DNA of 64,000 nt from Amoebophrya sp. A120 (lineage: Eukaryota > Protista > Dinoflagellata), in contig CAJINV010000003.1 of NCBI GenBank assembly GCA_905178155.1, positions 692,517 to 756,516 on the forward strand. Reading direction: 5' to 3'. How positions within the stretch are numbered: the stretch's first letter is position 1; every line of letters starts with the position of its first letter. Of the stretch, positions 16,501 to 56,300 are shown piece after piece. The position numbers and the translations under genes are program-made. The notes under the pieces are model-generated. The model was not told where the DNA came from. It did no database searches and saw only the letters and a program-made list of their open reading frames with translations.

Positions 16501-19500
16501 GGGGTCCGCAGCAAGGCGCTCGCGAGTCTCTCCTCCACGTTCCTCTGCCACAACGCGGCACTGCTGTGCGATCACGTGTTGCCGAAAGAAGAAGACGAGG
16601 ATGCGCAAAAGGCAAAAGAGAGGACACAAAAGACGCTAAGTCGCAATGCATCTGCTGCCGGTTGTATAGCACCTGTGAGTAGCCAAGACTTCAGCGACCA
16701 AGCACAGAATAGGTCGCAAGATCTGGATGACGTGGAAATGATGTCCAACGATAACGAAGGTGACCACAAGAAGGATCAGCAAGAGGATGATCTATCAGTT
16801 GGCGCGAAAAGACGGAAGCTGGAACAAGACGGCTCACAGGACGGCGTGGGCAACAAAGTTCTTGTAGGAGTCGAGGAGACAACCACCAGTACGGCGCCAC
16901 ACGTCGGCCCACCACCGGAACTGGAGCTGCAGTACCTGCGGGTGGCCGGCGAGCTCTTCAATTCTTGTCTCACGGACGAGAAGCCGATAGTCCGCAAGGC
17001 CGCCCTGATGTTTTTCGACACCATCTTTCCCAAGGTGCTTGAGCTCTACGGCAAGGCCGCGGTGCTGTCGGAAAATCCCGACGACAACGAGATGCGCGAC
17101 CTGGTGCTCCAGCTCGAGGGGAGCAGAGGGAAGGTGAAAATCGACGCCGATAAGCAGTTTCTGGTGGCGACTCGGCCCCTCCCGTCGGCCGAGGAGGAGG
17201 AAGAGATAAACAAGGGTGGACCGGAGCAGGATAAAAAGAAAAAACAGAAAGAAAATAAAGAGAAACCGAAGCCCCCGGCGAAAAAGGTGAAAAGCGTACC
17301 ACCTGCTGGCAAAACGATGTTTTCCACCATGTTGCCGGACCCGTATGCTCTGAAAATTTACCATCGCCATCCATTTTTTGCAGTACAAACAGAAAAAATT
17401 ACGTACCGGTAGCGGTACCTTTTTTGCATAACGAATTGGATCAGGATGGTTAATTTTCAGGGAATAATCCCGACCGCAAGATAACAAAAAAGACCGTCTG
17501 GACCAGGCAGCGACTGTATTTGTTCGACGTGCCTTCCACCTCGTCCACCGGTGATGTGTCTTCAAAAGCCAAGGACTTTGCCGTGGATCCCGGTCCGGTA
17601 AGTGATTGCAGGGACATGGTGGTGTCTCCTGCGGGGCACGAGACACTCGCCCGCGATCATTCCGGATTGCTCTTAGGCGGCGGCGTTGGTGTGCACGTGC
17701 AGATGAACAGGTCTGGACAACAACAGGAACATGGCAACATGAAGAGCAGTCTCTTTGAAGAAGGTGTTTCCGATGAAGACCAGGATGTAATGGACGATAG
17801 AGTGATGGAGCACCTGGCGCCCACGTATCCTGAGTAAAAACGTCCCCACACCAGAGTCAAGATGGGGATTTTGCAACACAAACCTAGAAGTTTTGGGACT
17901 CTTGCATCACAAGTTGCCGTCCGTAGTGTAGTGCAGGTCAGCAAGGAAAAACGCATCACAAATCCATCTGCTGATCCTGGTTACAGCATTACAAATGCCA
18001 CAACACGATTAGAAATTCCTCTCATGGTGATGCGCATTACAAATGTTCCTGTCCGTGCAAATCTGCATGACAACTCTGGGGTGGGGACGTTTTTACAAAT
18101 GATACCACGGCTTTGTTTCGCATCGAGCAAATCAAGGCTTTGACAGCCGACGACTCGGTGATGGTTCGGAAAGCGGCGATGCAAACCCTGAGCATGATGC
18201 TGCGGCAGTGCCCGCAGTCGGGCGTGATCCGTCGGGCCTGGAAAACCGCGGTGCTGCCGTGCGTTGCCGACCCCGAGGCGAGCGTGGCGGAGAGCGCTTT
18301 GCAGGAGGTCCGGATGACGCTGCTGCGCAAGATCGCCAAGGTGGGCACAAGGCCGGACGACGAGATCTACGACTTGCTGGCTGAGTTCACCGACCAAGAC
18401 GTGGAGTACATGCAGCGCGCCGCCGGGAATTTATTGCGTAGCGAGCAACAGCAGGGGGAGAAGCTGGCCCAGGCCTGCTGCGCCATCCTGGTGCGGTACA
18501 ACAAGCTCAGCCTCTCGGTGCCCCTCCCCATCTTGGACTTGTACGAAGAAATCACCTCGCGGGCCATTCTGCAAAGCGCAAACACGATGAACGCTTCTAG
18601 TACCGGCCGGAACAGCAGGAGACAGGCGATGTACGAAAAGTTGCGCGCGGGGGATTTGATGAGCGTGGACATGGAGAAGCTGTATAATGATTTTCTGCGC
18701 CAGTACGAGAAAGACGAAAAGAAAGAGCTGGAACGAGAGAAAAGACGGGAAAAACGCGAAAAGCAGAAGGAAAAGCGTCAACTGCTACTGGCGGGGAAGC
18801 AAATGCTTCTTCCGTGCTCGGATGAAGAGGAGGTCTCGCCTCTCGCCGCCGGCGAAGAAGCGGACGCGGACGACGACTTTGCAGCTCCTGGGCAAAAGCG
18901 TGGTATCAAGCCTGGAAAAACATTAAAGGCCAACGACAACGAGCAGCGGCAGCTTGCGTTCGAAGCGGCCCCAGCGGGGGGAGACCGAGACGACAACTAC
19001 GACAAGGAGAAGAAAAAAGAATTCAAACCAGCGGTCATCAAAGTGGATGTCGATTTGCTGTTTGTTCTCTGGAATCACCTGGTGAAGAGCGAGGCGGAAT
19101 ACGCGTCCGCCATGCTGAGCCACGTCAACTCCAGGATGCAGTCTCACAATGGGAGCCCACGGGGTGGTTCTTCCCGGCTGCTGAAGAGCGGGTCTCTCCC
19201 CGAGCGACCGTCGCTGCCTCTTTTTGATAAGTCGAAGGAGCCGCCAGGGGGACAACAAGAAGAAGGACACACAATATTAAGCAGCTTCAACTCGTCTTCG
19301 CAACAGATCGGCTCTTCGGCCAGCACAGGAGGTGCTGGTGTTGCGCCTATCAAAGTTCCGGAACTTGTCATCGGCAGCAGCAGGGTCAACATGAACAACA
19401 CTTCTTCTGCAGCGGGGGCTGGTGGTGCACCTGGAGCAGCAGGTCTTACCCAGCACGACTCTTCACCATGTTTTAGTCTCGATGAAAGCTCGATCGTGGC

Positions 19501-22500
19501 GTCCCCGGCCGAGGCAGGATTGCTCAGTGTAGAGCCGGAAGGCCTCCTGCGGCGGAAAGGTAGTTCTTCCGATGGCTATTTTCCGCGAGGTGGGAGCTGG
19601 ACGGGCTTGCGTACGCAACGAGACGCGCGGGTGTTGCAACGTATGGTGCGGATCCTGGGAAACTGTGAGCCGCTTCTGTCGGTGAAACAGAAACGGTTTC
19701 TGGTCCGCGGGTTCCGGGACCACATCCTCGCACAGAGCGAGCGGTTCGAGATTCCGCTCCTTCGCGACGTGATGCAGTGCATCGTGAAGTTTGATCTTCG
19801 CATTGTGCGAGCAGTGAAATTGCGGCGGGAGAAACAGGCCGCGCGACGCGCTAAGGCTCAGCGAGAACTGGCAGGCGATTTTGAGGGGGATATGCAGAAC
19901 GATGACGCGGGGGACCCGGACGAGAACGACCCTACAGAGAAAAGAAAAAACCGAGGACCCCCGAAACAAGGATCTCGCAGCGAAAAAATGGTGGCCTCAG
20001 GAGCAGCGGGGAATCCGAAAAATCGGAGCAGTATCAAAGCGAAGATGAAAAAAGCAGCTGCACGACCAAAAGCGCAGGCAACAAGACTTCCCGGGAACAA
20101 GAAGGCGACGGCGACGAATAAGTCGGGGACGACGCGAAAAAGTGCTAGTATGACTAAGTCCGCGACCACTGCACCAAAGGCAGGAAAAGGAAATAGCGGT
20201 GCCACGCATAATATTAAGCAGACAACTTCTTCGTCTGTGCAAAACAAAGAGGACGCTTCTGCTGCGGAAGAAGAAGATGAAGTAGTAGACGTGCAAAGTT
20301 CGAAAGGTACTGTAGGCAGACGGCGCGGCAGTTTCTCGAACAGCCGCGGTGACCACAGCAAGGACGCTGAATCGGGAAGCCCAAGCTCAGATGAGGACCG
20401 CCCGTTTCGTATCCTGAGTAAAAACGTACCCACACCAGAGTCAGGATGGGGATTTTGCAACACAAACCTAGGAGTTTTAGGAGTCACGCATGACAAGTTT
20501 CAGTCCGTAAGGTAGTGCAAGTTAGCAAGGAAAGCCGCATCACAAATCGACCTTCTGATCCTTTTTACAGCATTACAAGTTCCCAAACACGATTGAAAAT
20601 GCCTGTCATGGGGTTGCGCATCACAAATGTTCCTGTCATGGCAAATCTGCATAACAACTCTGGCATGGGGACGTTTTTACACAGGATATTTCGGTTCGAC
20701 TTTAAACCGCTGCGGGCAATGTGCGTGCGTTCCATGTTCCTGCTCTATTTCAGCAACCCCAAGGCCGCGGCGAAAGCGAAGAGCAAGGGCATGGTGTTAG
20801 AAAAACTGCTGGCACAGCAGGCGTACGAACCGACTGGCCTAGACGACGACGAACCGATGGAGCTGGACTACATCAGCGATCCCGCGGTGCTCCACATGAG
20901 GCAGAAGCGACACCTGTTCCTCCTGGGAGAAATTGCATTGTGGGACTTTGGTACTCTATCTTTACCACAGTTGTTGTTCTGGTGAAGCAGAAGTAGACTT
21001 TGACTGCGCTTCCCTTGGAGCTGTTTCTGCGATAATTTCATTTCGACGTTCGATGCAGTGAATGAAAAATTTTAACTCCTGTAAAGTCGTTAGAAGGACA
21101 AAATTTTTTCAGTTCTCATTCTCTTCGAGTCGTGCACTAGCACTGAATCTGATTTCGAAAGAACGCCAGCAGGAGCCCCTGCTCGCAATATAAAGGCGAT
21201 GTTGACCACGACTTTGATGCTGAATTTTGATTTTCCCAATTCCAGATGCCGTTTGGACTCCGAGCATGGTTGAGACACTACGAGACCTGTGCGAGTTTGA
21301 CCATGAGCAGCGGGACTTGGCATTGAAGCAGAATATGGATGTGTCAGAGTTGAAATCGACAAAGTTGAAACAATTTGCCATGCATAAAAATGGATGCCAG
21401 TTGGAACCCAGTTTCTAAGTGGCGCATGACAAATTTCGGTGGTCCCTAAATCCAGTCTGGCATGCTGTTTAGGCAAAGAAGAGTGATTTTCTCATGCTAC
21501 TTTAGCAGCTCGAGCTGTAACCTCAAACAGGCTTACAATCGGCCTCACTTGCCTGCTCTGCAACACCCGTACCTCGGGTCATGCATTTTATGCATTACAA
21601 ATTATTTCAACTTTGACGATTTCAAACCTGACGCTCCCATACAGAAGAAGCCGCACGTAAAACTCGAGACGGACTTCCAGGAGTCCATTCGGGCGCACGC
21701 GTTGGTCGCCATGGGTAAGTTGTGCCTCCGCGAAGAAAACCTCGCAAAGACGAACCTGAAGATGTTCGCGGCCTGTTTGAAACGAAACGACGAAGTGCTA
21801 TGCGTCAGGAGCAACGCCATGGTGATCCTCTGCGACCTGGCCCAGTGCTACGCCACCATCGTGGACCGGTTTCTGCCCGTGATGACGGATTTTCTGGGCA
21901 CGGAGACCCCCTTGCTCCGCATGAACGCGGTCATGATGGTGTCCTCCCTGTTGGCGGAGGATTTTCTGAAGCTGCACCAGAACAAGATGCTGCCCTACCG
22001 CCTCTATCAAACGTAAAAATGTCTGGGTCTGGAAGAATTCGAACTTGTGATGCGTGTTGCGGATCATACAAAAATCTGTGTTGCATGACTTGCAAAAGGT
22101 CCCACTTCTGGCCATGTTGAGAAGGCATTTCTCATGCAGAATAGGCATCAGCAAGGTGCTGCAGAACCTGTGATGCTAGGCCCTGCATTCCAGACCTGGC
22201 GGAGCTTGAAAAACTGCATGACAAATCTCGGAATCTTCCAGACCCAGACATTTTTGCATTTGATAGCCTCATCTTCATGCTGGCGGACCCCGACAGGCGG
22301 ATCCGCGAGTTCGTGGAATCCGTCTTCCTCCGGATCCTGCATCCCCGCAACGAGAATGTGTTCCTCTTACACTTCCGCGAGGTGATCTGCGGGCTGAACC
22401 AGTTCAACGAAATTCCGGCTATCGCCACGCACTCGCAGGCCCACTACCGCTTCGATGTCCGGAAACGCTTCCGGATCTACTACTTCCTCCTCAAGTACAT

Positions 22501-25500
22501 GGACGGCTCCCAGAAATTACTTCTCGTCATGGGCATTGTATTTATTTTTTCAATTATGCGACGGCGCGATTTTGCTTTTGGTTGTTGAATGCTGGGTTTT
22601 GACCTTTAGGTAGCTGTATGATGTCTAAAATATTTATAATTATTCAGTTCACGTTAGTATTATCAACTTCAATATACTCCAGTTCTTGTCTTACTTGATC
22701 CTCCTGAGTAAAATGAAACTTGATGTTTCTGTACTAGTACTTCTTAACGTTTGCACATAGATTAGAATTAAAAATCAATGAACGCTTCAGGTTCAGCAGA
22801 TCTTGAATGCCTGGTGGGTTGGCCCGGCAGGGGCGGATGGCCCCCTGAAGATCCCCGCGAACTTAGGAAGCACTGGTGCGGGAAACCCCGCCACGGGAGT
22901 GCTGTTTGACTGCTTTCAGCTGCTCCGCTCCAAAGAATTGCGCAGTGTGTACTCCTACAGGCAGCAACTTACCGAGTGGAAAGAGGCGGGCGATGACCAG
23001 AAGATGCAGCCAAGGCCCCGCAACAATGTTCCCAACCTGGTGGCCGCGGGCGGCGGAAACAACAAGAAGAGCAGACAAAAAGCAGAAAGGATCAACAACC
23101 AGGTTGCCGCAGAGCAGGCACTGCTTATGAATTGCAAAAGTATAGATCCCCGTACTAGAACTAGTAGTAAGCGCATTACGAATTCTTGCTCGAGAAATTT
23201 AGGAGATTTGTAGTATAATGCATGACTGCAAATGCAATTTTGAGTACGAGTACGATACTTTTGCACTGGATGCTGTTCGAGGAGCAGCAGTTTTCGGACG
23301 AGGCTCAGCTGCTCCTTTTCAACTCCACGGCCCAAGCCCTGCTCCGCATGCTCCAAGACCAGTGGGTGCCGATTCTGAAGGGCCTCTGGGCGCGCATGCG
23401 GCAGGTCCGGAGCAGTTTGCAGAAGCAAGTGCAGGAGTGCCTGGTGGATATGCTCTACGAGTACATAGACGAGCCGGATTGGGAGCGCCGTTGGCGCGGT
23501 AAGAACGAAGGCCTCGTCGTCGAGATAAAGCGGGACATTGAGGCGGAGAAGAAGAAGCGCGACCCCAAAAACCCCATCAAGTGGAAACCCCCCTCCCTCG
23601 CCGACATCGTGGGGGACCACGTGTACGACACCGAAGAGGGGCGCGCGGCCCAGGTGTCCACGACGGCGTCGAACAACACGCATAGTAACTACGACCCCAT
23701 CCGTATCCTGAGTAAAAACGTACCCACACCATAGTTGTCATGCAAATCTGCATGCTTAAAATGTTTGTCATGCGGAGCCCCATGAGAAGCATTTTCTAAG
23801 GGTGTTTTGAAATTTGTCATGCTCCAATCAGCATGAGAGACTAGATCTGTAACGCTGCTGAACTAGCTCAAACAGCACTAGTACTCTACGCGTCCAAATT
23901 TGTCATGCGAAACAAGCAAAGTTGGCCGATTTGTCTAGCAGATTTTCCATCTTGACTCTGGTGTGGGTACGTTTTTACTCAGGATAATCCGCCGGCCGAG
24001 GCCAGGCATGAGCGACGCCATGCACTTCTGCCAACTTCTGTACCCCGATGGAACCGCCTATGGAAGTGTCAGAATCGAAATTGACAAAATCGAAAAATTT
24101 GTGATGCGCAAAATCGATACCAGTTGAACCCTCAGCTTCTAAGTGGCGCATGACAAATTTCGGGAGCACCAATATCCAGTTTGTCATGCTGTTTGCGCAA
24201 AGAATACTGCTCCTGTCATGCTACTCTGGGAGCGCATCGTCCTCCTCAAACAGGCTTGCAGTCGGTCTCATTTGCCTGCTCCCCAACACAGGCCACGCGT
24301 GCTCTACATTTTATGCATTACAAGTTTTTCGATTTTGTCGATTTCGATTCTGACACTTCCATACCGCCGACCTCTTCCAGTCGCTCGGCCTGGCGGGAAA
24401 GTTCGGCAAGACCCCGATGGAGCAAGTGCGGAATTTGGAAATAAAGCTAGGACTAAAAGTGGATTGGGACAAGTTCGCCATGAATGTTTCTGGCAGAAAG
24501 AACCTCAAAACCATGAAAAGCCAAAGAACTGCTGATCGTAGTAATTCTGCCGGCCGTGCTAGTAGTGGGGCGCTGGGTGGGGCCCAGATAGTAGTAAATG
24601 GAAAAGGCAAAGGGAAAAATGGAGGGAAAGATAGCACCGGCTTATTAAATAATAACTTTGCCCCCCGCGGCCCGGGATGGTCATCGTCGTACAGCAACCA
24701 GCACGGCCCTGCTAGTCGCGCCGCCGGTTCGAAGACGGTCCCGGCGCTGCTTGCGATCGCTGAAGAGGGTGCAGCTGACCACGACCAGCATGGTGAGCTG
24801 CAACTGCAGGAAGACGGGCAAAAATGCTTTCCGTTTTCTGTCGGCCAGAATGAAAATCAAAGAAGCGATCCCCGACATCAGAACAAAACGACTAAAAGAT
24901 TCAATAAACCAGGAGTGATGAAGAATATGATGTTGCGAGAGAACAGTGCACCTTTAGGCACGGGAGGAGCTCCTCCTGCAGCAAGTACAACCGGGGGAAC
25001 AACAAGTTGGGCTGCCGGGGCCGCGAGCGGAAAGATCTTATCGGAAAAACACCCAACGAGGACCCTGCTAGCAATAGAAGGTGGACCGGGAACTTCTTCT
25101 ACTATCGATGTAGAGAATAGGAATAGTGTCCTCAACCAGAAGCCGCGACCGCGAGATCATCCGAAACCTGGTTGTAGTGAAAATAGAAATGGTCCGTCGC
25201 CTTCCTCCCAGCCGTCTCGGGGCCCCCTCGGTATCCGCAAGCAGGATGTGAGAACCATTTTTGCTCGGCCTGCGATGAAACTTAGCCGAGTCTCGCCGCT
25301 GTCAGCGGAAAATCTTTCTAAGCTTCCGAGGAACAAAGAGAACCACTGGCAGACGCAGATAGAGCTCAGAAAGCCAGAGACGGGTCGTGATCCTCATCTA
25401 CCAACCTTGTTGCAGCATCGGGACGAGAACGTCGAGCTACAAGCAGCTACAGCTCCAGCGGTTGATGCCCCTCCTCCTGCTAAGCGTGTAGTTGCAGGTC

Positions 25501-25703
25501 GTCCTTACATCAACTCTGTCGAGGAACAAACAGAAACTTCGAACGAGTTATCTAGTAGGCCCGCGCCCCCGCCTGGGCAAAGTAAGACAAGTAGTCTGTC
25601 TGGGACTCGTTCTGCTCATGCTGAGAATGTGAGCACCACCGCGGAGGGCGGTGCCAAAGAGACCGCATCAAAACGGGCACCGAGTTTGACGAGAGACTCC
25701 TGA
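10558..25703 (+). CDS. NCAPD3: Condensin II HEAT subunit CAP-D3-like, 14 exons, ~3778 aa predicted
   Basis: Cnd1-type segment SIRAHALVAMGKLCL...VRSNAMVILCDL...VDRFLP...LLAEDFLK...LADPD resembles CAP-D3; also DKVPGVRSKAL, DEKPIVRKAAL, DDSVMVRKAA. Exons 10558-10993, 11212-12226, 13088-15641, 15799-17343, 17472-17825, 18110-20409, 20694-20950, 21246-21333, 21647-22004, 22271-22537, 22791-23125, 23278-23703, 23992-24058, 24369-25703 join in frame (11 introners + GT-AG introns 20951-21245 and 22538-22790). The 5' and 3' extents are less certain. Confidence 0.8.
10994..11206. mobile_element. Introner family A, decayed copy
   Basis: TIR TGCAAAAGTATCGTACT / AGTGCGATTACTTTTGCA..ATA. Left end reads GTG and no TSD remains; removing 10994-11211 keeps the frame. 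Confidence 0.7.
12227..13082. mobile_element. Large introner, family H (856 bp, TTA...TAA ends)
   Basis: ~55-bp perfect TIR TTAGGGGAGAAAAATCTTGCCATCTCTACAAAAATTTTGTACCACCAGAACACGCG; TSD CTTGA; removal joins ORF 11208 to ORF 13122 in frame. Confidence 0.92.
15642..15793. mobile_element. Introner family A (152 bp)
   Basis: TAT...ATA, TIR TGCAAAAG(C/T)ATCGTACTCGTATAAATGC, TSD GCCTG; frame restored (LLCL|ECPEK). Confidence 0.92.
17344..17466. mobile_element. Introner family I (123 bp)
   Basis: TIR TATGCTCTGAAAATTTACCATC vs GATGGTTAATTTTCAGGGAATA; degenerate TSD ACCCG/ATCCC; frame restored. Confidence 0.8.
17826..18104. mobile_element. Introner family B (279 bp)
   Basis: TIR TATCCTGAGTAAAAACGTCCCCACACCAGAGT; TSD CCACG; frame restored (LAPT|ALFRIE). 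Confidence 0.93.
20410..20688. mobile_element. Introner family B (279 bp)
   Basis: Homologous along its length to 17826-18104; TSD TTTCG; frame restored. Confidence 0.93.
21334..21641. mobile_element. Introner family C (308 bp)
   Basis: TIR TATGG..G.GTCAG..TTGAAATCG.CAAAGTTGAAA; TSD CAGAA; frame restored. Confidence 0.92.
22005..22265. mobile_element. Introner family D (261 bp)
   Basis: TIR TATCAAA(C/T)G(T/C)AAAAATGTCTGGGTCTGGAAGA; TSD GCCTC; frame restored inside the conserved CAP-D3 block (LPYRL|IFMLADPD). Confidence 0.95.
23126..23272. mobile_element. Introner family A (147 bp)
   Basis: TATGAATTGCAAAAGTAT ... ATACTTTTGCACTGGATG; TSD CTGCT/CTGTT; frame restored. Confidence 0.85.
23704..23986. 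mobile_element. Introner family B, reverse orientation (283 bp)
   Basis: Its 3' end is the reverse complement of the 5' end of the other B copies; TSD ATCCG; frame restored. Confidence 0.93.
24059..24363. mobile_element. Introner family C (305 bp)
   Basis: TIR TATGGAAGTGTCAGAATCGAAAT(T/C)GACAAAATCGAAAAA; TSD CCGCC; frame restored. Confidence 0.93.
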
Positions 25704-35200: not shown

Positions 35201-36037
35201 CAGCCCAATTCTATCAATGAAGCTGGAAATATGATGATCGTCGAGAGGGTGCATCGAATGCAAGAACGAAACGTGGATCTGGAAAAGATGCACCGCATGG
35301 ACTCAATCCTCAATTCCCCCAAAATTGCCGGGGAGAGGGCCAGAATCATTGCCGAGTGGACGGCTCTAGCGGCTCGGATCCCCTATGGAGCCCGCTCGTT
35401 CGCGGATTTGAAGCCGGTGAACGCCACTCCATCGACAAAGAACAAGAAGAAGAAGGCGAATAACACATCAACTCTCACGACCCCATCGACAGCGACAACC
35501 TCGAGCAGTAGTTCTTCTACTCGGCCTACGCCGCAGAAGGAAACCTTATTGCCACCCCTGGGCGGTGGCTCCTCACCCTCAGCAGAAGTAGACAACGCAC
35601 GACCACAGCCGACAGCAGCTGCTTCCACTAGTACAAGAACAGGTGGTAATAAACGTAATAAAGCAAGATCCAAGTCCGTTACCGCCGCTCGTCTGTTTGG
35701 ACACAATCCTCCGGGCTACAAGGCGGCGCGATTGACGAGAACTAAGCACATTGCCTTTTTTACCCTCGACGTGAGACGGGGAGCCTTTCGGCACCGGCAC
35801 CAATCGATACCGCCGTTCTTCGAGGTCGAGAAGCACACGAAAGAATTCTTGCCGGATCAGACGCAGGACGTGAACGATCTAAAGAACTATGATGACAAGA
35901 TGTGGACCGAACGAATTTCTTGCCATTCTGAGAATGATATAGATGACTTAAAGCAGGTGGGAGGTGTAGTGGATCTAAACGCACCGCTTCCGCTGCCCGA
36001 AGATTTTTCAAACATTCAGATGAAACGAAACGAATGA
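29254..36037 (+). CDS. SRR1-domain protein fused to a class I SAM-dependent methyltransferase domain, 6 exons, ~1605 aa predicted
   Basis: SRR1-like motifs ALGLGS..SAQWQTALL, YDPAMT..D, IFYMPLC, VIGND; MTase motif I VLEIGCSAG, then AVDVS and IDIGGDR. Exons 29254-31905, 32219-32288, 32462-32567, 33524-33749, 34007-34038, 34306-36037 join in frame after removing 5 introners. Confidence 0.72.
31906..32213. mobile_element. Introner family C (308 bp)
   Basis: Family C TIRs; TSD AGAAA; frame restored. Confidence 0.92.
32289..32456. mobile_element. Introner family A (168 bp)
   Basis: Family A TIRs; TSD GTGCG; frame restored. Confidence 0.92.
32568..33518. mobile_element. Introner family E (951 bp including a 628-bp nested insertion)
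   Basis: TIR TATCAAAAG(G/C)AAAAATCCCCCCTCCCCA(C/T)ATC; TSD CTGCT; frame restored (VLALL|LRVWPR). Confidence 0.92.
32834..33446 (+). mobile_element. Nested tandem retro-like insertion (106-bp direct repeats; 15-bp target present three times)
   Basis: CTCAAATCAGCAACA at 32819-33, 32941-55 and 33447-61; repeat 32835-32940 matches 33341-33446 (1 mismatch); hairpin-rich spacer between them. Confidence 0.75.
33750..34001. mobile_element. Introner family D (252 bp)
   Basis: Family D TIRs; TSD GCCCT; frame restored. Confidence 0.93.
34039..34300. mobile_element. Introner family D (262 bp)
   Basis: Family D TIRs; TSD GCGTA; frame restored (VYLAY|DTAQF). Confidence 0.93.
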
Positions 36038-45600: not shown

Positions 45601-48152
45601 GAGCGGAAGTTTCAAAGAGCTGCACCAGCTCCGATTTGTCGTCAACGAGCACTCCTCCTAGTACTGATGTCGAAGCAGCCGGCTGGAAGATGCTGGCGAA
45701 AATTGAAGCAGAAATGGATGCTTCTCTGGAGCAGCCTTTGCAACACGCTATTTCTGTAGTACCGCGTCCGGAACGCTCGCCCAAGCAAAGAATCGACGCG
45801 CTTTTCACGGACTTTCTCGCACATTTTGAGGAATGCTTCGCCCCCGTCGCGTTCCGCATGAAAGCTCTGATTCGACTGGCAGAGAACGAGAAAATAAACG
45901 ACGGAGGAGCCGCACGACAGGCCGGCGCACCAAATGATGCTCCGCGGTTGCTCCAGATGAAGGAGGACAGCAAGAACGCATCTCCGCCTTGTGTCGTGGT
46001 CGAGCAACAAGAGCATTCTCTACCGGAAGCGGACCCACGCGGTCCGCCGCCTGCAGTAGTAGAAGTGGACTTCAATAGTCTCAAAAAAGCTGCGCCATCA
46101 TGCGCTAGTAGTACAACAACGACCGCAAACCCGTTGTACAACGTATTTGAGTTGATTTGCCTTTTCACCTCCTTCGTTACCGCCTCTGCGCCGGCCACCG
46201 CAAGCCGCTTGCCGCTGTTGTTGCAACACGGCATTCCGCAGAAGGCGATCGAGCTTTTTTTTCTGCGGCCGTGGAACAGCATTCTGCACAACAACGTCGT
46301 GCTGCTCATGCGCGGGATCCTGCACGCGGAAACGCTCTCGCTTCGGGAAAAGTTTTTTTTCCTCCTGGACACCGAGTTTCTCCAAAAGGCGGCCGAGGGG
46401 ATCGGGCCGCCCCCGACCTTTGTGCCGCCGCCCCCGCCTCCCCGCGATCATAGGGGCGTGCCGCGTCCTCCACTAGGAATTCCGCGGTCTCCGTCACTCC
46501 CGCGCGGAGGTGGCGGGGGAGGTAGCAGTGCTGGTGGCACGACAACGACCACAAGTCCGACGGGAGCCGGTGCAGCAGGAGACGGCGCGGAGACACAGCA
46601 GGAGGACAAAAACAAAAAAGCAGATGAGAACAAGAAAATAAACGGAGACCACACGACCAGGAGTGAAGACGAAGCGCCGTCGACAGCTTCGACAAGTACA
46701 ACTGGAGGTCGTGAGGATCTTCATGCAAGTACATCAACGGTAGTAGAGGCAGCTCCATCTGGAGGTTCCTCGGAGTCGGACGCGGTAGCAGCAACTGCTA
46801 CAACCGGCACTGCAGGTACAAGTACAACCTCTAGGAGAGAGCGTTCGCCGCCGCCTGCGTCAACATTCGTGCCACCCCCGCCTCCACCTGTAACGACGTC
46901 CACCGGGGATGTGGTGTTTTATTTTCAGATGCCGCGCAAAGGATACTACCCCCACTTGATGGAAATGCTGGACGACGTCCTTCAGCTGGTGAAACAGTTC
47001 GACTTTCCGAACCTAAACGGCGGGGGCAATAATTCGACTACAGGACGAGGGGGTCGTGAACGTGATGAACGTCGTGAAAGTCAAGATGCAGTGAGTCCTC
47101 GAGGTGGTGCAGCACCTGCCTCCGATGATGAAAGTCAAGATCCCGTTCCCGCCCCAAGAGTAGCGTCCTACGGCATGGAGTCGTCCCCACCGAGCGAGGA
47201 TCCCACACCGACCGCGGCTGCGCTAGCAAGGAACATCCAAGATTGGGCGGACACTGCCGGTCAAGAGATCACGACGGAAGCGAAGATCAAGCGGGGCGTG
47301 GACGAGGAGGACATTCGTACCTGTCGCTTGCACCTGGAGTGGTGGAAGAATCTCACCGGGGGGTGCGGGCATCATTCGCCGCCGCGGTCTGTATCCACCG
47401 CGCCGGACTCTCCGGACGATCCGATGCTTGTTTCAGGGCACAATCTCGACTTCGCGTTAACAGGGACGATGAACAAGCACGACGTAGACCACGCAGGAGG
47501 TGGAGGGGGGCACTCGACGTCGCACGCAGCAAACGTGCCGCCGCTGAGAAGTACTAGTACGAATTTGAGTTTGGAAGATTCTAAAGTTTTTTTTCCGCTC
47601 TCGCTCATTTGTTCAACGTTCTATTTTTCGTTCTGATTTGTTTGCATAAGAGGGGCCGATGATTTTAGAGCATAAAAATAATCACAACATGCGCCAGCAT
47701 TACCATCTGTGATTCACCGCGACTGCTTGTTTTGCTATCCACTTGCCAATCTCTACTTTTAGGCCTCGAGCAGAGCTCTCTGAGTTTCCGCGCCATCGAG
47801 GGCCTGGTGATGCCGTCCGCCGGGCACAGCGATGTCGACATAGACGGCATCGGCGAAGTGGAGCAGCCGAAGCCCATCTCTTATCCTGTGCAAAAGTATC
47901 GTGCTCGTAGTAATTCTAATTGCAGTCATGCATTACAAATCTTTTTCGTAAGGTAAATCCGCATAAAAAACGTTATTTCTCCTGCTAAGGAAATTTGTAA
48001 TGCTTTTATACGATTACGAGTACGATACTTTTGCAATGCATATCTCTCCACCAAACTCCATTTCCCCGCCGAGGGAGTCGGGGACGAGCACCTTGGTCTC
48101 CAGTCCGAAGGGGGTTCGCACCGCTTCACACGAACGTGCGTCAAGCTACTAG
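42605..48152 (+). CDS. SAPS-domain PP6/SIT4 phosphatase regulatory subunit
   Basis: TLEDVLDDEQLLQ, HKFPF|VACELFSCEV, LNSVLAGYFCKVVSLLL, FFLRPWNSILHNNV, RKGYYPHL. GT-AG introns 42881-43029 and probably 47551-47762, plus 3 introners; all joins in frame. Confidence 0.85.
43177..43328. mobile_element. Introner family A (152 bp)
   Basis: Close relative of 15642-15793; TSD CGGGG; frame restored. Confidence 0.93.
43385..43650. mobile_element. Introner family D, reverse orientation (266 bp)
   Basis: Family D TIRs with interior inverted relative to the 22005 copy; TSD GAGAA; frame restored. Confidence 0.9.
47882..48042. mobile_element. Introner family A, reverse orientation (161 bp)
   Basis: Starts TATCCTGTGCAAAAG, the reverse complement of the 3' end of the 15642/43177 copies; TSD TCTCT; frame open to the stop at 48152. 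Confidence 0.9.
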
Positions 48153-49647
48153 AGGAGAGCAAAAGTTTTATCGTGGAGATAAACTATGACTCAGACTCAG
48201 CCAAGAGAATTTGAATTTTAAACGAAAGAGAAAGGACGCGTGCGCTCGCTGCTGGGCGGGCACAAGCACAACTTCTACTTGATACTTACATTATTTTTGT
48301 TGACGCTCCTGCTAGTGTTGACTCTTCATCACACGACAAGAACGGAGGCACCAGTGACAGAGTCAGAGACAAGATGAGGATGGAGCTGTTTTGGACATGT
48401 TGACCATTTTCATCATGGCAATTAGGCGCAAGTCTGCTGGGCTCTGGCACTCCTACTTGGGCGGGTCGACGCCCGCATGTTGTATCTCTGCTTGTGGTAT
48501 TCGAAATTTAATATTGAAGATGAAGCTTGGTCTTGGAGATGAGTGTGCATGTGTTTGTCAAAATCTACAGTCCTTTTACCATCATGATGATGAAGAGTGA
48601 TATAATGAGCACAGATTGCGTCCTGCGTCTGCAGCTCCGACTGCAGCTTCTGTCTTTGCGTAAGAACCGTTCCGGTCTTCTTGCAGGTCCTTGAAGTAGA
48701 ACAAAGTGTTGCTCTTGTAGGGCCTTCTTGATACGCCAGCAAGTAAAAGTAGAATTGATGTTGAGAAGTTTTTATTTGGACGAAAGATGAAATTTTGAAC
48801 TTTGCTGGGCCTTCCAGGAAAAAACTGTCGTGGAGTCTCGCTTCCAAAAATTCGATAATTAGACAAAGCTTTGTGTGTAGTTGATCATGGCGAGCTCAGC
48901 ATCTAGGCATTCATCGCTTCTGTAGTGAGTCTTTTATTTTCGTGATTCTGCAGCTTGTGATCGTCATCGTGTTGTTTCTGTCTGTAGTCGGTCCTGTTGT
49001 CGAGTTCTTTATTATAAAAAATTTGGGGTTCTTCTTGCGCCACCTTTAATACGAACGAGCGTACTACAACTAGGTGTTGCATATTTAATCGACCACGCGT
49101 CGAAGAGTTGTAAGGAAATCGTTGCGATGTGCTGCTCTTCGTGGTGCGGGACAGGGATAGCTACAGGACCTGCGCGTCCTCGACCTCCGGTACTTCCGTA
49201 AGAGATGGCCTTGACAGTCCTGCAAAGGTAAAGAAGCCAGACGCTGAGTCACTCCTGACGAGCCACAGTGACGACCCGCCTGCTCGCAGTTGTTTCGTCT
49301 CGTGCATGTTGCTCCTTGCTTGTCCAACAACCTCCAGTACGACGACCTTTCTGCCCCTGCTCAGCACGTCGCTCCACACTGCCACCCTGTACGGCACGGC
49401 CCACGAGAACTTGTTCTTCCCGGTGAAGAAAAGCTGCAAATCGGTGCGCCGTCATCTATTTATCCTGCTATCGACGGTTTCGTCAACTACACCTTCCGAG
49501 GCACGGCACGGGCATCAAAATTCGCCGCATCGAAGGAGGTGGTTGTGTGGTGCAAGAAATTCTACCAGTTTTGTTCCGGTGTTACGACATCGCGGACCTT
49601 CACGAGTTCTCAGCCAAGAGCTGCAAGGGAGTCCTCGCCGGCGGAAA

Positions 49648-52102
49648 ATGGCCACTAGTTCTGCTGCACCGACTTGCTCCGGAGGGCACGAGGGTGGACA
49701 GAAAACGAACACCCAAAAATCCCAAACATGGTATAAATACCAGTAAGTCCACCTCTAGGTTGTGTCTCATTTACTTTTGGTGCACGTAGTTTGGATTTGA
49801 TTACGAACAAGCTGAAAGTAGTTTAGTAAAAGTTCGCGCAAAACCAAAACCATTTTTGATCGTCATCTTTCGTGTTTGATCGCTCAGCATAGCCAAGAAC
49901 ATCGATATGCGGATGGAAAAAACTCCAGGTGTGGTATCGATATTGGGAGCGGCGTCACCAAATGGTTGGTTGCCGAAGTGCAACGCGGACGCATTATCAG
50001 AGAACTAGCCTCCGGCGTATGGCGTTCTCAACTGTTACATTCTCAACTGTTACAGCATGAATTTGTGATGCAAGAATTGCAAAAGTGAAAGGGCGGAGGC
50101 TGCACCTCTAGCATTACAAGTTCTGCACAGAATTAGGTGCTGTTTAGCCCTTCGAAAATTTGTCATGCGAAGCAGCTTTCTCGTGTGGAGCTTGATGCTG
50201 GTAGTTCTGCATGACAAATCCATGTAACAGTTGAATATGTACAGAGTTGAGAACGCCATACGGCGAAACCAAGCTTCCGTATGGTCTCGTGTGGAAGCAG
50301 ACTGGTAATCTGACCCCCGATATCTGTGATCGAGGACTACAAGCCATCAGGCATATCGTGCACAAGGAGTTTCTGCAAAAGTTCTACTTCGGAGCTGACA
50401 CAGAATTGCAGGACCAGAGCGGAACAACCGAAGTGGCAGCGGTCAAGAAGTTCTCCCACGATGTCGATGACCCAAAAAATGCACTTCTACAGCAGCTCGC
50501 ACGGCAGAATGTCTTTGCCATTGGTACCGAGGTGTTTCGCAAGGCAACCGAGGGCTCAAAATTTCTCCAGCGGGTGCAGGTGGAGACTGGTGTACAAGTG
50601 GAATTGGTTTCGCAGGATACCGAGGCCGAGCTTGGGTACGCCACTGGCATCGCGACCATGCAGCTCGAAGCGCAGGCGGGACACAACTTTCTCGTCAGAG
50701 GACCAGCAGATGTCGATGCCGTGGATTATGCTGTTGTACCGGAAAAGCAAGGCGGAAGTGGTTTTGTCACTGCGGAAAAGGACGTGTGGCAGCAAGCCTA
50801 TGACCTTGTCAGAGCCACACCCACAGCCACAGGGGGTGCGCCTGCTGCGCCATCTTCGTCATCTGAGGCTGTCCGCGGTACCGATGCCGCGTCTGAACCT
50901 GCTGAACTTCCACAGAGCAACCTTATCATTTACGATTCCGGTGGCGGCTCGTACCAAATTGTGCAGAAAAGAACGCAAAATCCCGACGCGAACAGCAGTT
51001 TCGATGCGACGACGACGTCTCACAACACCGGAGGACTGCGGGCGTACCTGGGAGAATACGGGGTGGCGCATGGAACTCGTGATTTTCTGGAAATGCTAAA
51101 ATCCATGGAGGACAGGAGGGGAACCCCTTTAGCCGAGCCGGCAACGATATGAGACTGCATAACTCCCCCTCCCCCTCATTTGTATGGCAGGAGCAGCAAT
51201 ACACGCAACAACAGACAAGGGGGCTTCGCATGACAAATATGCACACGGAATCTAGTACTGTTTGAGGTTGCGAAGTTTGTCATGCAAACTGTGCTGGGAG
51301 GCAAGACGTGGATTGGGTATTTTGCATTACAAATGAGGGGGAGGGGGACGAGTTGTGCATTCCCATAAACGACACTGCTAAACGCGAACCCGTACCCAGT
51401 GACAAAGGCGGAGCTGGAGAGCTATTTGGATGCTTTGCGAAGCAAAATGTTTCCGGATGAAATATCAAACTTTCCAGGCGGAGCACGAAGCGGCCTGGGC
51501 GAAGCAAATTCGGCTCAGGATGCGTCTTGGCTAGTTAACGCGGAAATCGTTGGAATTGGAGGGCCCGACAGTATTTTCAGGATGGCGAGTGAGATCATTT
51601 ACATTTCCTCAGCTGCGTGGTCTTCGGAGACAGGAACGGATAGCAAGAAAAAACCGCTTCTTGCCGGGTCACTTAGTTTTACCGGTATAGACTACATATT
51701 AGTGTTGCTGGGTGTAGTACTTCATCTCTGTGGAAAAAGGTATTTTCATTGAATGTTCATTTGCATATACTTCCATCATCTAGTAGCTGTAGGTGTAGCA
51801 TGGAAAAAAGGAAGCCGCTCTGAAGCAAATTCTCAAACTGCACAGCTGCGGAATTACGGGCTGCGATCCTCAGCGAAATTCCCGGGAAGAGTTCAGAAGC
51901 GCTTGCTGCTCAGTATCTCCATTGGCCCGGCGCGGAAGGAGCCCTGTATCTGGTTCCGAAAGTTTGTACCGTGCTCACGGTAATCGAAAATCTAAAGATT
52001 GCACGCTGTCACTGGCGACCCGTGCGGGGTTCCTGTTTGGGTCTGCTTCTTTTGAAGAGCCAGAGCATAGCGGGCCAGGACCACGACCAGGATTCTTTTT
52101 GA
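49648..52102 (+). CDS. Ppx/GppA-family (ASKHA) exopolyphosphatase-like protein
   Basis: GIDIGSGVTK, AIGTEVFRKA, VELVSQDTEAELGY, YDSGGGSYQI, IVGIGG, GSCLGLL. Predicted GT-AG introns 49731-49892 and 51685-51845 plus 2 introners; the start may lie further upstream. Confidence 0.8.
50018..50260. mobile_element. Introner family F (243 bp)
   Basis: TIR TATGGCGTTCTCAACT; TSD CGGCG; frame restored (ELASG|ETKLPYG). Confidence 0.92.
51148..51367. mobile_element. Introner family G (220 bp)
   Basis: TIR TATG.GA.TGCA.AACT..CCCCCTCCCCCTCATTTGTA; TSD AACGA; frame restored. Confidence 0.92.
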
Positions 52103-53361
52103 GAAGAAAAAAACGTTCTTAACAGCGACGTTGCTATACAGTCTTAAGCTTGACTTTATTTACGGCATACTAGGTTCAAGAATGCATTTGATCTATTTTT
52201 CTGCTACAAACAGTACGAGTGGGAGGGGTAGAACGAGCACAGCGGGATAATCAAAAAAACATGGCTCCAACGTCGAGGAAGAAAAATCTAGTGAAACTGA
52301 CACTCGGTCCTTCTTGTCGGCACGGAAGAACCAAGAAGATGCAGAACTAGCACATCAACCACACCTACAGCAAATATAAGGAAAAGATACACGACACCTG
52401 CTCGTCCATAATTGCGCCCAGTGGCCCTGTCTCACGCTGGTCGTCAAAGAAGTGACGAACAAAGGCATTTTTTCGAACTGAAAAATTGATGAGGCCAACA
52501 AAAGAAACGTGATGCCGTTTCAGCCACGCTTGCTTCCATGGTGGACTTGGAGTTGTGTTTGTTAGTGTTTCGTAAATGAATTTGCTCTGCGAGGAATCGA
52601 TGGTCGTGTGTCAATAGTTTCATTATTGCGAGTAAACCTTGTCCTTGTTCGCGATGATCCTCGCATCATGGCTTCCGTGCGTCTCGTTGATACGTATTTT
52701 TACTACTTGTCGGTTGTTCCTCTTTTTGTTCTTCCATCTCCCGTTACAATGAACGAAGTATGTTGTTCCACGCCAACGCATTTCTGGTTCTCTATATCCT
52801 ACTAGTGCGTGGCTCAAACACAAACTAAACCGAGCGCTACAAGGATTCGTCGAAGAGATAATAATGTACTACCAAAGGCAAAGGTTTTTCTTTTTTTCAT
52901 CTGCATTGCATCGCGAAGCCGAACACCCACTACTCAGACGCATCCAAAAAGTTGAGCGACCCCTTCAAAGTGCGTCGGTTCGTTCCTTCCACAAAAAAGT
53001 GTGTTACGTGAAGTCATCGATAGCAACAGAGCAGTAGTTTCCAAGCAAACAAACTATCAGTATCAGCATCAAGTGCATTGAGAATTGTGTGAAAACCGCA
53101 AAGGTCGAGTCGCAAAGTTGCCACGTTGTGCTTCAATTGTTATACCATGAGTTATTTCCTTGGATTTTTCATCTGATTCACGGTTTTCCGGACGATGGTG
53201 AAGATGGGTCTGACTACCTACCCGCCCTCTCCCTCCTGACACCAGATAAGATAAAAGGACCGAAAAAAATGCAACCTCTTATAAGGAGTTGATCTGTGGA
53301 TAGATCAAAGAATAAGAGTTTGTTACGAACTCGGACAAACGCCTCAAGAACACGACCAAAA

Positions 53362-56300
53362 ATGGTGGACAGCTCCGAGAAGAAATTCGGGTCCACCAAT
53401 CTGGTGGTGTACCCACCGTCGGGGTACCAAGCCCCGGGGTATCTGCCGTTGGATCCGCCGAGCTTAGCAAAGTGTTGCTCCTTTCGCCCGGGCCCGTGTA
53501 GCGTCCAGCCGGTGCCGTTTGGCATGAACGAGGTGGCTTTCTCCAGCGGCAACCTGTTGGTCTTCCAAAATCTGGAAACCGAGGAGCAGCGATTTTTCCG
53601 CTCCCAGGCCGAAATTCTCTGCGTCGCTTTTTCCCGGGAGGAGCCCGCGACCTCCTCGCGCGGAAGTATTGAATGCTTCGTGTGGAGGTCTTGTTTGGTT
53701 TTCTTATGATCGCTCATCGTCGAATTATCCTGTCTGTTGACGTTGAAATGCAAATGGAAATGGACAAAAGCAAAACTCGCATGATCCAAAAATACCCTAC
53801 CCCAGCAGGTTCCGCTCCGTCCCGCCCTGGCACGGGGAAGCCGAGTCCGAAGCTCGGCGCGTTTGGGGAGAAGGCGGTCGCGGTTCCGGGGACCACCCGC
53901 GTGGAGGGTGACATCGTGCTGTTTTCGCCGCTGATGAGCTCCGGCAATAACCTGATCACGCCCAAGCGCCGGCTGAAGTTCCACAAGGGTGACGTTGTGC
54001 AGCTGAAGTTCCTGCTGTCCTCGAAGCTTTTAATTTCCTTCGCCAACGACAAAGCGATGACCGGCGCCCTGTGGTCTCTGGCGGGCGTGTCCGGCCCTGC
54101 TTCGAGCTCTTTGTCCCCGCTGCGCACCTTTTCGCAGGGCCCCGCGGACCTCTGCCGCCAGATCGTGTTGCTGCCCGACCTGGAGGCCGACAGCGCGATC
54201 CGGTTCTGCACCCACGGCCCGCAACACCTGAAATTCTGGTCGGTGTCCAAGATCAACCCGGGGTCCAGCAGCACGTTCAAGGTGAAACGCGGCTGCTTCT
54301 CGAACTCGTCGGCGGCCGCCGCGGCGAGTAACAAAGGCAGCTTCTCGGTGACCGCCGCGTGCTGGTTCGGGGACCCGCAAAACCCGACCATCGCTGCGGG
54401 TACGGACAAGGGCGAATTGTTTCTGTTCCACGACCCCAGCGGAAGCGGCAGCGCGGTCCGCATCGTGCCCGCGACCACGTCGCGGTTTGGGCGCACCGTC
54501 GTGAACGACGAGTTTTACCGGCCGGACAGCGCCATCGTCTCGCTCGTGTGCCAAACCACCGGGACCTCGTTCGCCGCCCAGCAGCTGGTCGCCCTCTCGG
54601 AGCACGGCGCTCTATTGATTTTCAACGTGGTCGCGGCGAAGGCCACCGGCCCGGCCGCCGCGGTGGGGGGTGCGGTGCCGCTGGGCAGTCGGCCGACCAG
54701 CTCGGCTATGAACACGACGGCTAACGCCTCTGCGGCCCTGATGAGATCGCCGCTGTTCCCCTCCTCCGCCCCTTCCTCCTCGAAGCTGCGCACCGTTCCG
54801 ACGCCGATGCAGCGGGGCGCCAGCGCCGCGTCGGCGGCCTCCACGCGGAAGACGCTCACGGCGCTATCCTGTGCAAAAGTATCGTACGTAGTACTAATTG
54901 GAATTGCAGTTATGCATTACAAATGTCGTTCGCGTTCCCAAGGAAAATCAGCATGACAAATTCCGTTTGTCATGCTGAGCGAATTTGTATTGCAAGTACT
55001 ACTAGTACGATACTTTTGCAGTTCATACGCGACGCTGTTGAGCAACACCGGGGTGGCCTTTGAGGACTGCTTCTACACGTACGCCAGCGCCCTGGCCATC
55101 ACGTCGGTGCAAAGCATGAACCTGTGGTCGATGGGCCTGGACCAGGCCGGACCGGTGGCCCCGTTGACGAGCGCGGTACCTGCGTTGTCCGCCGACACGC
55201 TGTTTGTCACCTCCACGGCGAGTGTGTTCCAGTGCCCCTTCCCCAGGGCACCCTCGCAAGTTCTGTCACTAGAGGTACTACACAAGAAGTACTGATTGAA
55301 GAGCTGGTGGCGGTGGGGTGATTTTTCGTTTTAAGTATTTCGGGCGAAGAAATTGTGAAAAACAAAAACGTCGTGTCGTGTGCTTCATTTGTAAAGTGAT
55401 TTTGTATTCGTATTGGAATTGGATCAAATTGATGACCAACATGAACATTACAGAACGATTCCTACATGGAGCAATACCCGGAGACGAACAAGGACCCGGC
55501 CAGTTTTCAAGCTCTGATTTCGCAGCCCGCAAACAGCACGTTTACCTGTGCGACTGCGTTTGAGGACCTGGTTTTTCTCGGCTCCGCGGACGACGGCGTT
55601 TCGGTATTTCGCCTCTCGGAAACAACCAACAAGCTGGACTTCGAAATGTCGCTGCTGCCGGGAGTGGGCGTATAATCCTCGGGTTTTCTTGCTAGTAGCA
55701 CTATGTACGCGCATGAAATATCACGTCGCAAGATAAGGATAAGATCAAGATCTTGATCTCAAACTACTTTTAATGTGAAGCTACGGCGCGCTTGCGCTAA
55801 ACTAACTTTAGAACAAGCGTGCCGACATATTACATCGATCATCACACTCGCAGATTTCCTCCTTGGTGGCTAGTGCGTGGGGCCTGGCTGTGGCAGCGGG
55901 TGGGCGCTTGGTTCTGTACAAGAACTACCGATACACGGACACACCCTTCTTCGATCGCACGGTGGTATCGCCGAACGGCAGCACCGCAAACAGCAGCGTG
56001 AACAAGCCGTCCCTGAAGGACGGTATCACGTGCAGCACCTTTGGCCACGGGGCAAAGTTCGCGTTCGGGACGAAAGCCGGAGCCGTCTACTACCTGGACC
56101 TGGACGAGAGCCCCGTGCGACCGCGGATTCTGCGTGGCCACTCCAGCGAAATCGTCGGGGTGTCCTTTCTGCAGCCGGGTAACGTTGTCCTGACCGCTTC
56201 CACCAAGCAACTTCTGGCCTTTGACCCGGTGATGATGCGCCGGTTGGCGAGTCTCCGGGAGTGCAAAGAACTGACGGCTGTCGGCTCCTCCGCGTTGCCG

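What the first reader, a model, noticed from the sequence alone, without database searches (positions are those of the whole stretch)
17826..55027. Introners function in either orientation within same-strand genes
Seen: family B is forward at 17826 and 20410 but inverted at 23704; family A is forward at 15642 and 43177 but inverted at 47882 and 54865; family D at 43385 is inverted relative to 22005. All host genes are on + and every frame is restored. A donor/branch-point/acceptor layout is polar, so this argues (inference) that recognition uses symmetric features such as the TIR stem and bidirectional motifs.
Basis: partly seen in the sequence, partly recalled or inferred. Interest (0 to 1): 0.8.

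Follow-up and report, generated by a model that had tools for sequence, protein, structure and literature searches.

The report
Introns spliced in either orientation
Copies of the same transposon-like intron sit forwards or backwards in genes of what is likely the marine parasite Amoebophrya, and are missing exactly from RNA-derived contigs either way although they lack normal splice ends, likely because the splicing machinery measures its cuts from their paired ends.

Summary
Observation confirmed. Twenty elements with TAT…ATA inverted ends and a 5-nt target duplication interrupt five + strand genes; families A, B and D occur in both orientations as stated. None of 20 can be read as GT-AG, GC-AG or AT-AC, and nearby GT…CAG pairs are bypassed. 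Three imperfect duplications fit one register: N-TAT…ATA-NNNN. In a related metagenome assembly, unselected copies are 27 forward to 34 reverse, with boundary letters at background. So symmetric ends, not a polar layout, likely define the intron; the shared internal motif is one-directional in family B and so is not a required strand-specific signal. The elements match published Amoebophrya A120 introners (PMC7789003), and either-orientation introners are known from Aureococcus and Polarella, where spliceosomal splice sites are used. My searches found no report of orientation-blind, dinucleotide-blind removal with a fixed register in Amoebophrya. The scan noted similar odd-ended introns in other genomes, without orientation. 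Stem dependence and the catalyst are untested.

The parts
15642..15793 (+). Family A element, forward, 152 nt, perfect 5-nt duplication; 157 nt removed
   Evidence: direct joint 15636>15794 in X1 and X4
17344..17466 (.). Single-copy element, 123 nt, duplication 3/5; limits the cut to after duplication position 2-4
   Evidence: direct joint 17340>17469 in X1; slide range
17826..18104 (+). Family B element, forward, 279 nt; 284 nt removed; internal motif 6 sense/0 antisense
   Evidence: direct joint 17820>18105 in X1
20410..20688 (+). Family B element, forward, 279 nt
   Evidence: removal by contig-length arithmetic
21334..21641 (+). Family C element, 308 nt
   Evidence: removal by arithmetic
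22005..22265 (+). Family D element, forward, 261 nt, inside the Cnd1-like region
   Evidence: removal by arithmetic
23126..23272 (.). Diverged family A element, duplication 4/5; limits the cut to after position 4-5
   Evidence: contig piece starts at 23277; arithmetic
23704..23986 (-). Family B element, inverted, 283 nt; internal motif 0 sense/4 antisense
   Evidence: X1 record 1 and X4 record 6 lengths fit removal of 288 nt exactly
24059..24363 (+). Family C element, 305 nt
   Evidence: arithmetic
31906..32213 (+). Family C element, 308 nt
   Evidence: no RNA joint listed
32289..32456 (-).
   Evidence: no RNA joint listed
32568..33518 (.). 951-nt element with a nested direct-repeat-bounded insertion
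   Evidence: no RNA joint listed
33750..34001 (+). Family D element, forward
   Evidence: no RNA joint listed
34039..34300 (+). Family D element, forward
   Evidence: no RNA joint listed
43177..43328 (+). Family A element, forward; 157 nt removed although a GT…CAG pair is available 8 nt inside
   Evidence: joint 43171>43329 in X4
43385..43650 (-). Family D element, inverted, 266 nt; 271 nt removed
   Evidence: joint 43379>43651 in X4
47882..48042 (-). Family A element, inverted, 161 nt; 166 nt removed
   Evidence: joint 47875>48042 in X4
50018..50260 (.). Element single in this window, 243 nt; 248 nt removed
   Evidence: joint 50012>50261 in X4
51148..51367 (.). Element single in this window, 220 nt; 225 nt removed
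   Evidence: joint 51142>51368 in X4
54865..55027 (-). Family A element, inverted, 163 nt, duplication 3/5; 168 nt removed; limits the cut to after position 1-4
   Evidence: joint 54860>55029 in all four runs
13083..25703 (+). Host gene 1 (part): HEAT/Cnd1 condensin-subunit-like protein, 9 elements and 2 GT-AG introns
29254..36037 (+). Host gene 2: SRR1 plus methyltransferase domains, 5 elements
42606..48215 (+). Host gene 3: SAPS-like protein (weak Pfam hit), 3 elements
49114..52122 (+). Host gene 4: Ppx/GppA family, 2 elements
53293..57233 (+). Host gene 5 (part): beta-propeller protein, 1 element

Best explanation
These are non-coding elements with inverted ends and a 5-nt target duplication that lie in exons in either orientation and are missing exactly (element plus 5 nt) from RNA-derived contigs, likely because a predicted terminal stem, identical on both strands, sets the cut sites by distance rather than by GT-AG. 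Inferred steps: (1) they are non-autonomous DNA transposons (MITE-like) inserted without orientation preference; (2) the cut lies 1 nt before the 5' TIR and 4 nt after the 3' TIR (intron = N-TAT…ATA-NNNN); (3) the TIR's UAU then sits at intron positions +2 to +4, where this genome's ordinary donors read TAT or TAC, so a relaxed spliceosome would read it as the donor on either strand, while the 3' site would be placed by the stem instead of an AG; (4) the internal GCATNACAAA repeat would act on DNA (for example as a transposase site) or offer a loose UnAy branch core both ways, and is not a strand-specific requirement.
For: In metagenome loci (strand called by a codon model, 20 of 20 right in leave-gene-out tests on the window): 98 of 132 pattern copies have an exact 5-nt duplication; copies not chosen by the pattern are 27 forward:34 reverse; intron +1 is G in 42 of 129 (coding G 0.296), the 3' end is AG in 13 of 129, and 15 of 129 allow a canonical reading in any register. 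Register: slide ranges 2-4, 4-5 and 1-4 intersect only at 4; all 9 predominant A120 splice motifs in Table S4 of PMC7789003 have T at +2; 9 of 10 ordinary donors here start GTAT or GTAC. Folding z of -1.8 to -12.2 on the sense strand and -3.2 to -12.8 on the antisense strand for 19 elements. U2, U4, U5, U6 and 83 of 89 spliceosomal proteins present and U1 not detected in A120 (PMC7789003 section 10).
Against: No lariat, branch point or catalyst was seen. The register rests on three copies and assumes it is uniform; one of the three (23126) depends on length arithmetic; PMC7789003 describes splice sites as variable relative to the hairpin (Fig. 3 legend; Fig. S23 legend, 1-5 nt), and its Table S4 may reflect aligner choices. 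Random letters at intron +1 and at both last positions are hard to square with spliceosome chemistry as recalled from textbooks. No sign that the stem is selected as RNA: G-U 29 vs A-C 26 mismatches, p=0.79, so TIR conservation may reflect transposition alone. The terminal three pairs are predicted unpaired in 15642 and 23126, which are still removed. No branch-like motif is enriched on the sense strand (YTRAY 39 vs 38 of 171). RNA evidence is cDNA contigs from one study and two samples, flagged 'RNA?'; several joints are flagged 'between: not known'; efficiency per orientation cannot be read from contigs. Pattern-selected A copies are skewed 24:55 (p=0.0006) and one unassigned cluster is 6:0, so some orientation bias is not excluded.
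Confidence: 0.55

Rival explanations
1. Same symmetric-stem recognition, but a separate non-spliceosomal or dedicated machine cuts at fixed spacers from the terminal pairs and ligates the exons, as proposed for Euglena nonconventional introns.
For: Boundary letters at background; canonical GT…YAG pairs bypassed; no sense-strand branch motif; N1-TAT/ATA-N4 parallels the tested Euglena code N3CDG/CH'GN5-6|R (PMC12501133 abstract); weak purine excess at the base that is both intron +1 and exon +1 (85 of 129, p=0.008 uncorrected).
Against: The best register puts TAT exactly at donor +2 to +4, matching ordinary donors, a 1-in-6 coincidence otherwise; the purine excess is partly mirrored at position 1 (pyrimidine 69 of 129), so may be a transposase target preference; no such enzyme was looked for.
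Confidence: 0.3
2. The joints are reverse-transcriptase template switches across a strong hairpin flanked by direct repeats; the mRNA keeps the elements.
For: Hairpin plus short direct repeat is the textbook setting for this artefact (recalled); all RNA evidence is cDNA-derived.
Against: Retention shortens the frame in 20 of 20 cases, including a 3296-aa condensin-like frame; one 9,656-nt contig crosses nine elements as a single path; the joint stays exact where the repeat is only 3/5 (17344, 54865) and where the terminal pairs are predicted open (15642).
Confidence: 0.07
3. Each strand carries its own conventional donor, branch point and AG acceptor, as in Aureococcus-type introners.
For: A and B ends contain a U-tract plus CAG, and 8 of 20 copies begin GT in the best register.
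Against: The observed removed lengths cannot end in AG after GT in any register (0 of 20); the internal CAG is not used at 15642, 17344 and 43177.
Confidence: 0.04
4. The elements are excised from DNA (as ciliate IES) and the transcripts come from excised templates.
For: TA-starting inverted ends recall IES (recalled).
Against: Contigs of run X5, which cover intergenic bins evenly, run from exon into the TIRs at single-copy depth (24-26), and one runs through nearly all of element 17344 (table 8); no exact-excision joint was among the 15 of 721 joints shown. Contigs drop rare forms.
Confidence: 0.03

Closest known systems
Introner elements / non-canonical introns of Amoebophrya sp. A120 (Farhat et al. 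2021, PMC7789003; abstract, sections 10, 11, 12, 16, 35 and supplement passages read; figures not visible)
   Same: Inverted repeats starting TAT, seven variable bases, then a run of A; 3-5-nt direct repeats (5 bp in Fig. S19 legend); hairpin; no dominant boundary dinucleotides; length about 240 nt; co-oriented genes. The window is very likely this organism or a close relative (inference from these features).
   Different: That paper mentions orientation only for genes in the passages found and calls splice positions variable; here orientation is shown to be free, removal is always element+5 nt where seen, and one register fits.
Either-orientation introners of Aureococcus anophagefferens (Huff et al. 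2016; not held, known second-hand) and Polarella glacialis classes 1, 2, 3, 6, 7, 8, 10 (bioRxiv 2020.10.14.339549, passages)
   Same: TIR elements with target duplications that make introns in both orientations.
   Different: Those carry one spliceosomal site in the element and take the other from the duplication (GT/GC/GA donors), with an orientation bias; here no canonical pair is possible and available ones are bypassed.
Euglena nonconventional introns (PMC12501133 abstract and passages; PMC11282704 section 6)
   Same: MITE-like, no GT-AG, paired terminal triplets with fixed unpaired spacers, longer at the 3' end.
   Different: Code there is N3CDG/CH'GN5-6|R, genetically tested, with circular products; here N1-TAT/ATA-N4, untested, product unknown; unrelated lineage.
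Fritillaria borealis non-canonical introns (PMC11282704 section 6; PMC13326754 passages)
   Same: TIR/TSD-bearing introns with non-GT-AG ends removed efficiently; shows a spliceosome can adapt.
   Different: They have preferred ends (AG-AC, AG-AT) and U1 is kept; here the ends are target-derived and random, and U1 was not detected in A120.
IS3EU/GingerRoot and IS481EU DNA transposons (PMC10045372, passages)
   Same: TA..TA or TNT..AYA termini.
   Different: Their duplications are usually 6 bp, or about 4, 15 or 25 bp; here 5 bp, and no transposase was found or sought.

Membership tests
Amoebophrya A120 introner elements | Inverted repeat starting TAT, 7 variable nt, then at least three A | tested here: met
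   TIR positions 11-14 are mostly A in the 20 window elements (families C, H, I deviate) and in 151-161 of 171 metagenome copies per position; TAT itself was a selection criterion
Amoebophrya A120 introner elements | 3-5-nt direct repeat at the exon/intron boundary | tested here: met
   17 of 20 perfect 5-nt; 98 of 132 in metagenome loci
Amoebophrya A120 introner elements | Repeated, non-GT-AG, removed from transcripts | tested here: met
Amoebophrya A120 introner elements | Sequence identity with the published A120 genome or family list | not testable with these tools
   no genome held for the window; assignment is by features
Aureococcus/Polarella-type either-orientation introner | Makes introns in both orientations | tested here: met
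Aureococcus/Polarella-type either-orientation introner | Uses spliceosomal dinucleotides carried in the TIR or taken from the duplication | tested here: not met
   0 of 20 in any register; 15 of 129 in metagenome copies
Euglena-type nonconventional intron | Paired terminal triplets with fixed spacers | tested here: inconclusive
   one register fits three informative copies; terminal pairs predicted in 17 of 19
Euglena-type nonconventional intron | CDG/CH'G motif at +4 to +6 and spacer of 5-6 | tested here: not met
   ends are TAT/ATA at +2 and -5
Euglena-type nonconventional intron | Released as full-length circles without lariat | not testable with these tools
   contigs only
Spliceosomal (U2-type) intron | Lariat and branch point | not testable with these tools
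   no sense-strand excess of branch-like motifs; no lariat reads
IS3EU/GingerRoot MITE | TA..TA termini | tested here: met
   PMC10045372 passage
IS3EU/GingerRoot MITE | 6-bp duplication | tested here: not met
   exact duplications of 5 nt in 98 of 132, of 6 or more in none
IS3EU/GingerRoot MITE | Cognate DDE transposase with the same termini | not tested
   no autonomous element sought

The most novel reading that the evidence does not exclude
Amoebophrya runs a second, strand-blind splicing system that ignores both terminal dinucleotides, outcompetes canonical GT-AG pairs, and cuts 1 nt before and 4 nt after any TAT…ATA transposon stem; it arose independently of the Euglena system and makes every insertion of these transposons into an exon harmless, in either orientation.
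Probability: 0.3. Interest if true: 0.85.

Novelty: new variant of a known kind. Interest (0 to 1): 0.5.

Why it matters
How Amoebophrya removes tens of thousands of introns without GT-AG ends, apparently without U1, is a stated open question (PMC7789003). Orientation freedom, random boundary letters and bypassed canonical sites narrow the answer to the inverted ends and give an exact rule (N-TAT…ATA-NNNN) that can be tested genome-wide with existing reads and by minigene. It would also explain the scale of the invasion: any exon position and either orientation would be tolerated. The elements themselves and the idea of either-orientation introners are not new.

Tried and rejected
No whole genome was held, so no genome-wide count in the same strain. 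No holder run is on record as RNA; X1-X4 are treated as RNA-derived because they join across GT-AG introns. Raw-read run X9 laid only 8 reads, all in one D-family end: no strand or efficiency data. Including X5 swamped the joint table (15 of 721 rows shown), so six removals rest on record lengths; the five elements of gene 2 have no listed joint, which says nothing either way. A symmetric cut (element+2 nt, adding one codon) was considered and rejected: all 9 direct joints are element+5. Selection for G at +1 or AG at the 3' end: none seen. G-U over A-C excess as a mark of RNA-level stem selection: none. Sense-strand branch motif: none. Mismatch positions in imperfect duplications (13, 12, 9, 6, 6 over positions 1-5, n=42) were not informative without RNA. 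Rfam: no match in the window. Huff et al. 2016 was not held. Rows dropped: hit 38845; the 951-nt element was not folded; 72 of 243 metagenome elements had no confident strand and 31 of 171 no family.
Full report
Observation. A scan for TAT…AT[AG] ends with an inverted repeat and a flanking 5-nt duplication gave 21 hits against 0-1 in 10 shuffles; I dropped one weak hit (38845). Of the 20 kept, 17 have a perfect 5-nt duplication. The three C copies share one orientation.

Host strand. Removing each element plus 5 nt and ten GT-AG introns gives stop-free + frames of 3296, 1605, 1529, 718 and 1022 aa; the longest antisense frames are 140-380 aa. Pfam finds Cnd1/Cnd3, SRR1, methyltransferase and Ppx-GppA above cut-off, and SAPS and beta-propeller hits below it. 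Eight canonical joints have + polarity. Frame restoration is automatic for element plus duplication, so it proves little; retention shortens the frame in 20 of 20 cases, only slightly for 47882.

RNA. Runs X1-X4 are contigs flagged 'RNA?' (one study, two samples); they join across GT-AG introns. Direct joints remove exactly element+5 nt at 15642, 17344 and 17826 and at 43177, 43385, 47882, 50018, 51148 and 54865. Those at 43177, 43385, 47882, 50018 and 51148 come from one run and are flagged 'between: not known'; 54865 is in all four runs, unflagged. For 20410, 21334, 22005, 23126, 23704 and 24059 the pieces were not all listed, but record lengths match removal to the base: 6717 and 4039 predicted and observed, against 4327 if 23704 were kept (the end at 24446 is inferred from the 30-nt overlap with the next contig, and two canonical introns are inferred). 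So three inverted copies are removed at direct joints and the fourth by arithmetic. Contigs give no efficiency. Run X5 holds the filled sites at even depth.

Boundaries. None of 20 elements reads GT-AG, GC-AG or AT-AC in any of the six registers the duplication allows. Five have G-TAT at the 5' end and a YAG 8-10 nt inside the 3' end; at 15642, 17344 and 43177 the direct joints show this pair is not used. Three imperfect duplications limit the cut to after position 2-4, 4-5 and 1-4; only 4 fits all, giving N-TAT…ATA-NNNN. This assumes a uniform register. It places TAT at +2 to +4, and 9 of 10 ordinary donors here begin GTAT or GTAC. All nine predominant A120 motifs in Table S4 of PMC7789003 have T at +2, though the paper calls positions variable and aligners may shift joints.

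Wider sample. Of 132 pattern copies 98 have an exact 5-nt duplication. A codon model called the host strand correctly for 20 of 20 window elements in leave-gene-out tests and was confident for 171 of 243 elements. Family-assigned copies not chosen by the pattern are 27 forward:34 reverse (A 11:9, B 3:4, C 1:2, D 7:12, others 5:7); pattern-chosen A copies are 24:55 (p=0.0006) and one unassigned cluster is 6:0, both unexplained. In 129 perfect duplications, +1 is G in 42 (coding G 0.296), the 3' end is AG in 13, and 15 allow a canonical reading in any register. No RNA was laid on these loci; their splicing is inferred.

Symmetric features. Nineteen elements fold with z of -1.8 to -12.2 on the sense strand and similarly on the other; 8 of 10 ordinary introns lie within ±1.4. 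TIR positions 4-7 often mismatch while 8-14 pair. The terminal three pairs are predicted in 17 of 19 and open in 15642 and 23126, both removed. G-U and A-C mismatches are equal (29:26), so the TIR's conservation does not show RNA-level selection. The motif GCATNACAAA is at 14.7 per kb in elements and 0.27 per kb elsewhere, and absent from 10 ordinary introns. A, C, D and others carry it both ways, but B carries it one way: 6/0, 6/0 and 0/4 in the window, 3.3/0 and 0/4.0 on average in 7 metagenome copies. It is therefore not a needed strand-specific signal; its core could still give a loose UnAy on both strands (inference). Branch-like motifs are not enriched on the sense strand.

Mechanism. 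Most likely (0.55): MITE-like insertions in random orientation are removed from pre-mRNA by a relaxed spliceosome that reads the TIR's UAU as a donor and places the 3' cut 4 nt past the stem. Next (0.3): a dedicated stem-measuring machine as proposed for Euglena. Together these make symmetric-end recognition about 0.85. Template switching (0.07), conventional signals on each strand (0.04) and DNA excision (0.03) fit poorly. Shown: orientation, duplication, removed length, absence of canonical ends. Inferred: register, stem, catalyst, transposon origin.

Comparison. The anatomy matches the introner elements of Amoebophrya A120 (PMC7789003), which later surveys class mostly as TIR elements with mixed boundaries (PMC12130899 passages and one part of dataset file 8). 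Either-orientation intron creation is published for Aureococcus and several Polarella classes (bioRxiv 2020.10.14.339549 passages; PMC10228655 passage), and PMC9860276 allowed opposite-orientation matches in its methods. Those use spliceosomal sites. Euglena has a tested spacer code of the same shape (PMC12501133). Searches found no report on orientation or a fixed register in Amoebophrya; most subscription journals are not searched, figures (Fig. 3, S19-S25 of PMC7789003) were not visible, and two supplementary files of PMC12130899 were not searched. The scan's earlier notes list odd-ended TIR introns in other genomes, none on this DNA.

Verdict. A real, well-supported property of a published system: the headline is known for other introners, but the combination of free orientation, random ends, bypassed GT-AG pairs and one candidate register appears unreported and makes an open question testable. 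Interest 0.5.

Noticed in passing
window 12227-13082: 856-nt element with an 80-bp inverted repeat starting TTA (the A25-type start in PMC7789003), a 5-nt duplication and no GCATNACAAA motif; removing it plus 5 nt joins two frames into 1190 stop-free aa, and the length of X1 record 1 is consistent with removal.
   Followed up: partly
window 32834-33462: 629-nt insertion nested in element 32568, bounded by 122-nt direct repeats (32835-32956, 33341-33462) whose last 15 nt duplicate the target; X5 depth there is 286 against about 26 in unique DNA. Looks like a target-specific mobile element that hides in introners.
   Followed up: no
window about 10995-11206: Degenerate family-A-like element with a decayed 5' end and no clear duplication between two open frames; would test whether removal needs the duplication or the terminal TAT.
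   Followed up: partly
window 58725-62438 (+): 1237-aa open frame with a reverse-transcriptase domain (PF00078), probably a non-LTR retrotransposon.
   Followed up: no
loci L001-L142: Family-A copies bearing the exact search end have it at the 5' side 55 times and the 3' side 24 times, whereas unselected A copies are 11:9; one 314-324-nt family is 6:0 in one orientation.
   Followed up: partly
window 34038-34071 in run X9: The only 8 reads laid from this raw RNA run match a D-family end with different flanks, so that run holds related elements at other sites.
   Followed up: no
window 55670-55853: An ordinary GT-AG intron that folds more than expected (z -4.1).
   Followed up: no
window 4920-6267: 18-nt tandem arrays in inverted arrangement running into a 998-N gap.
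   Followed up: no
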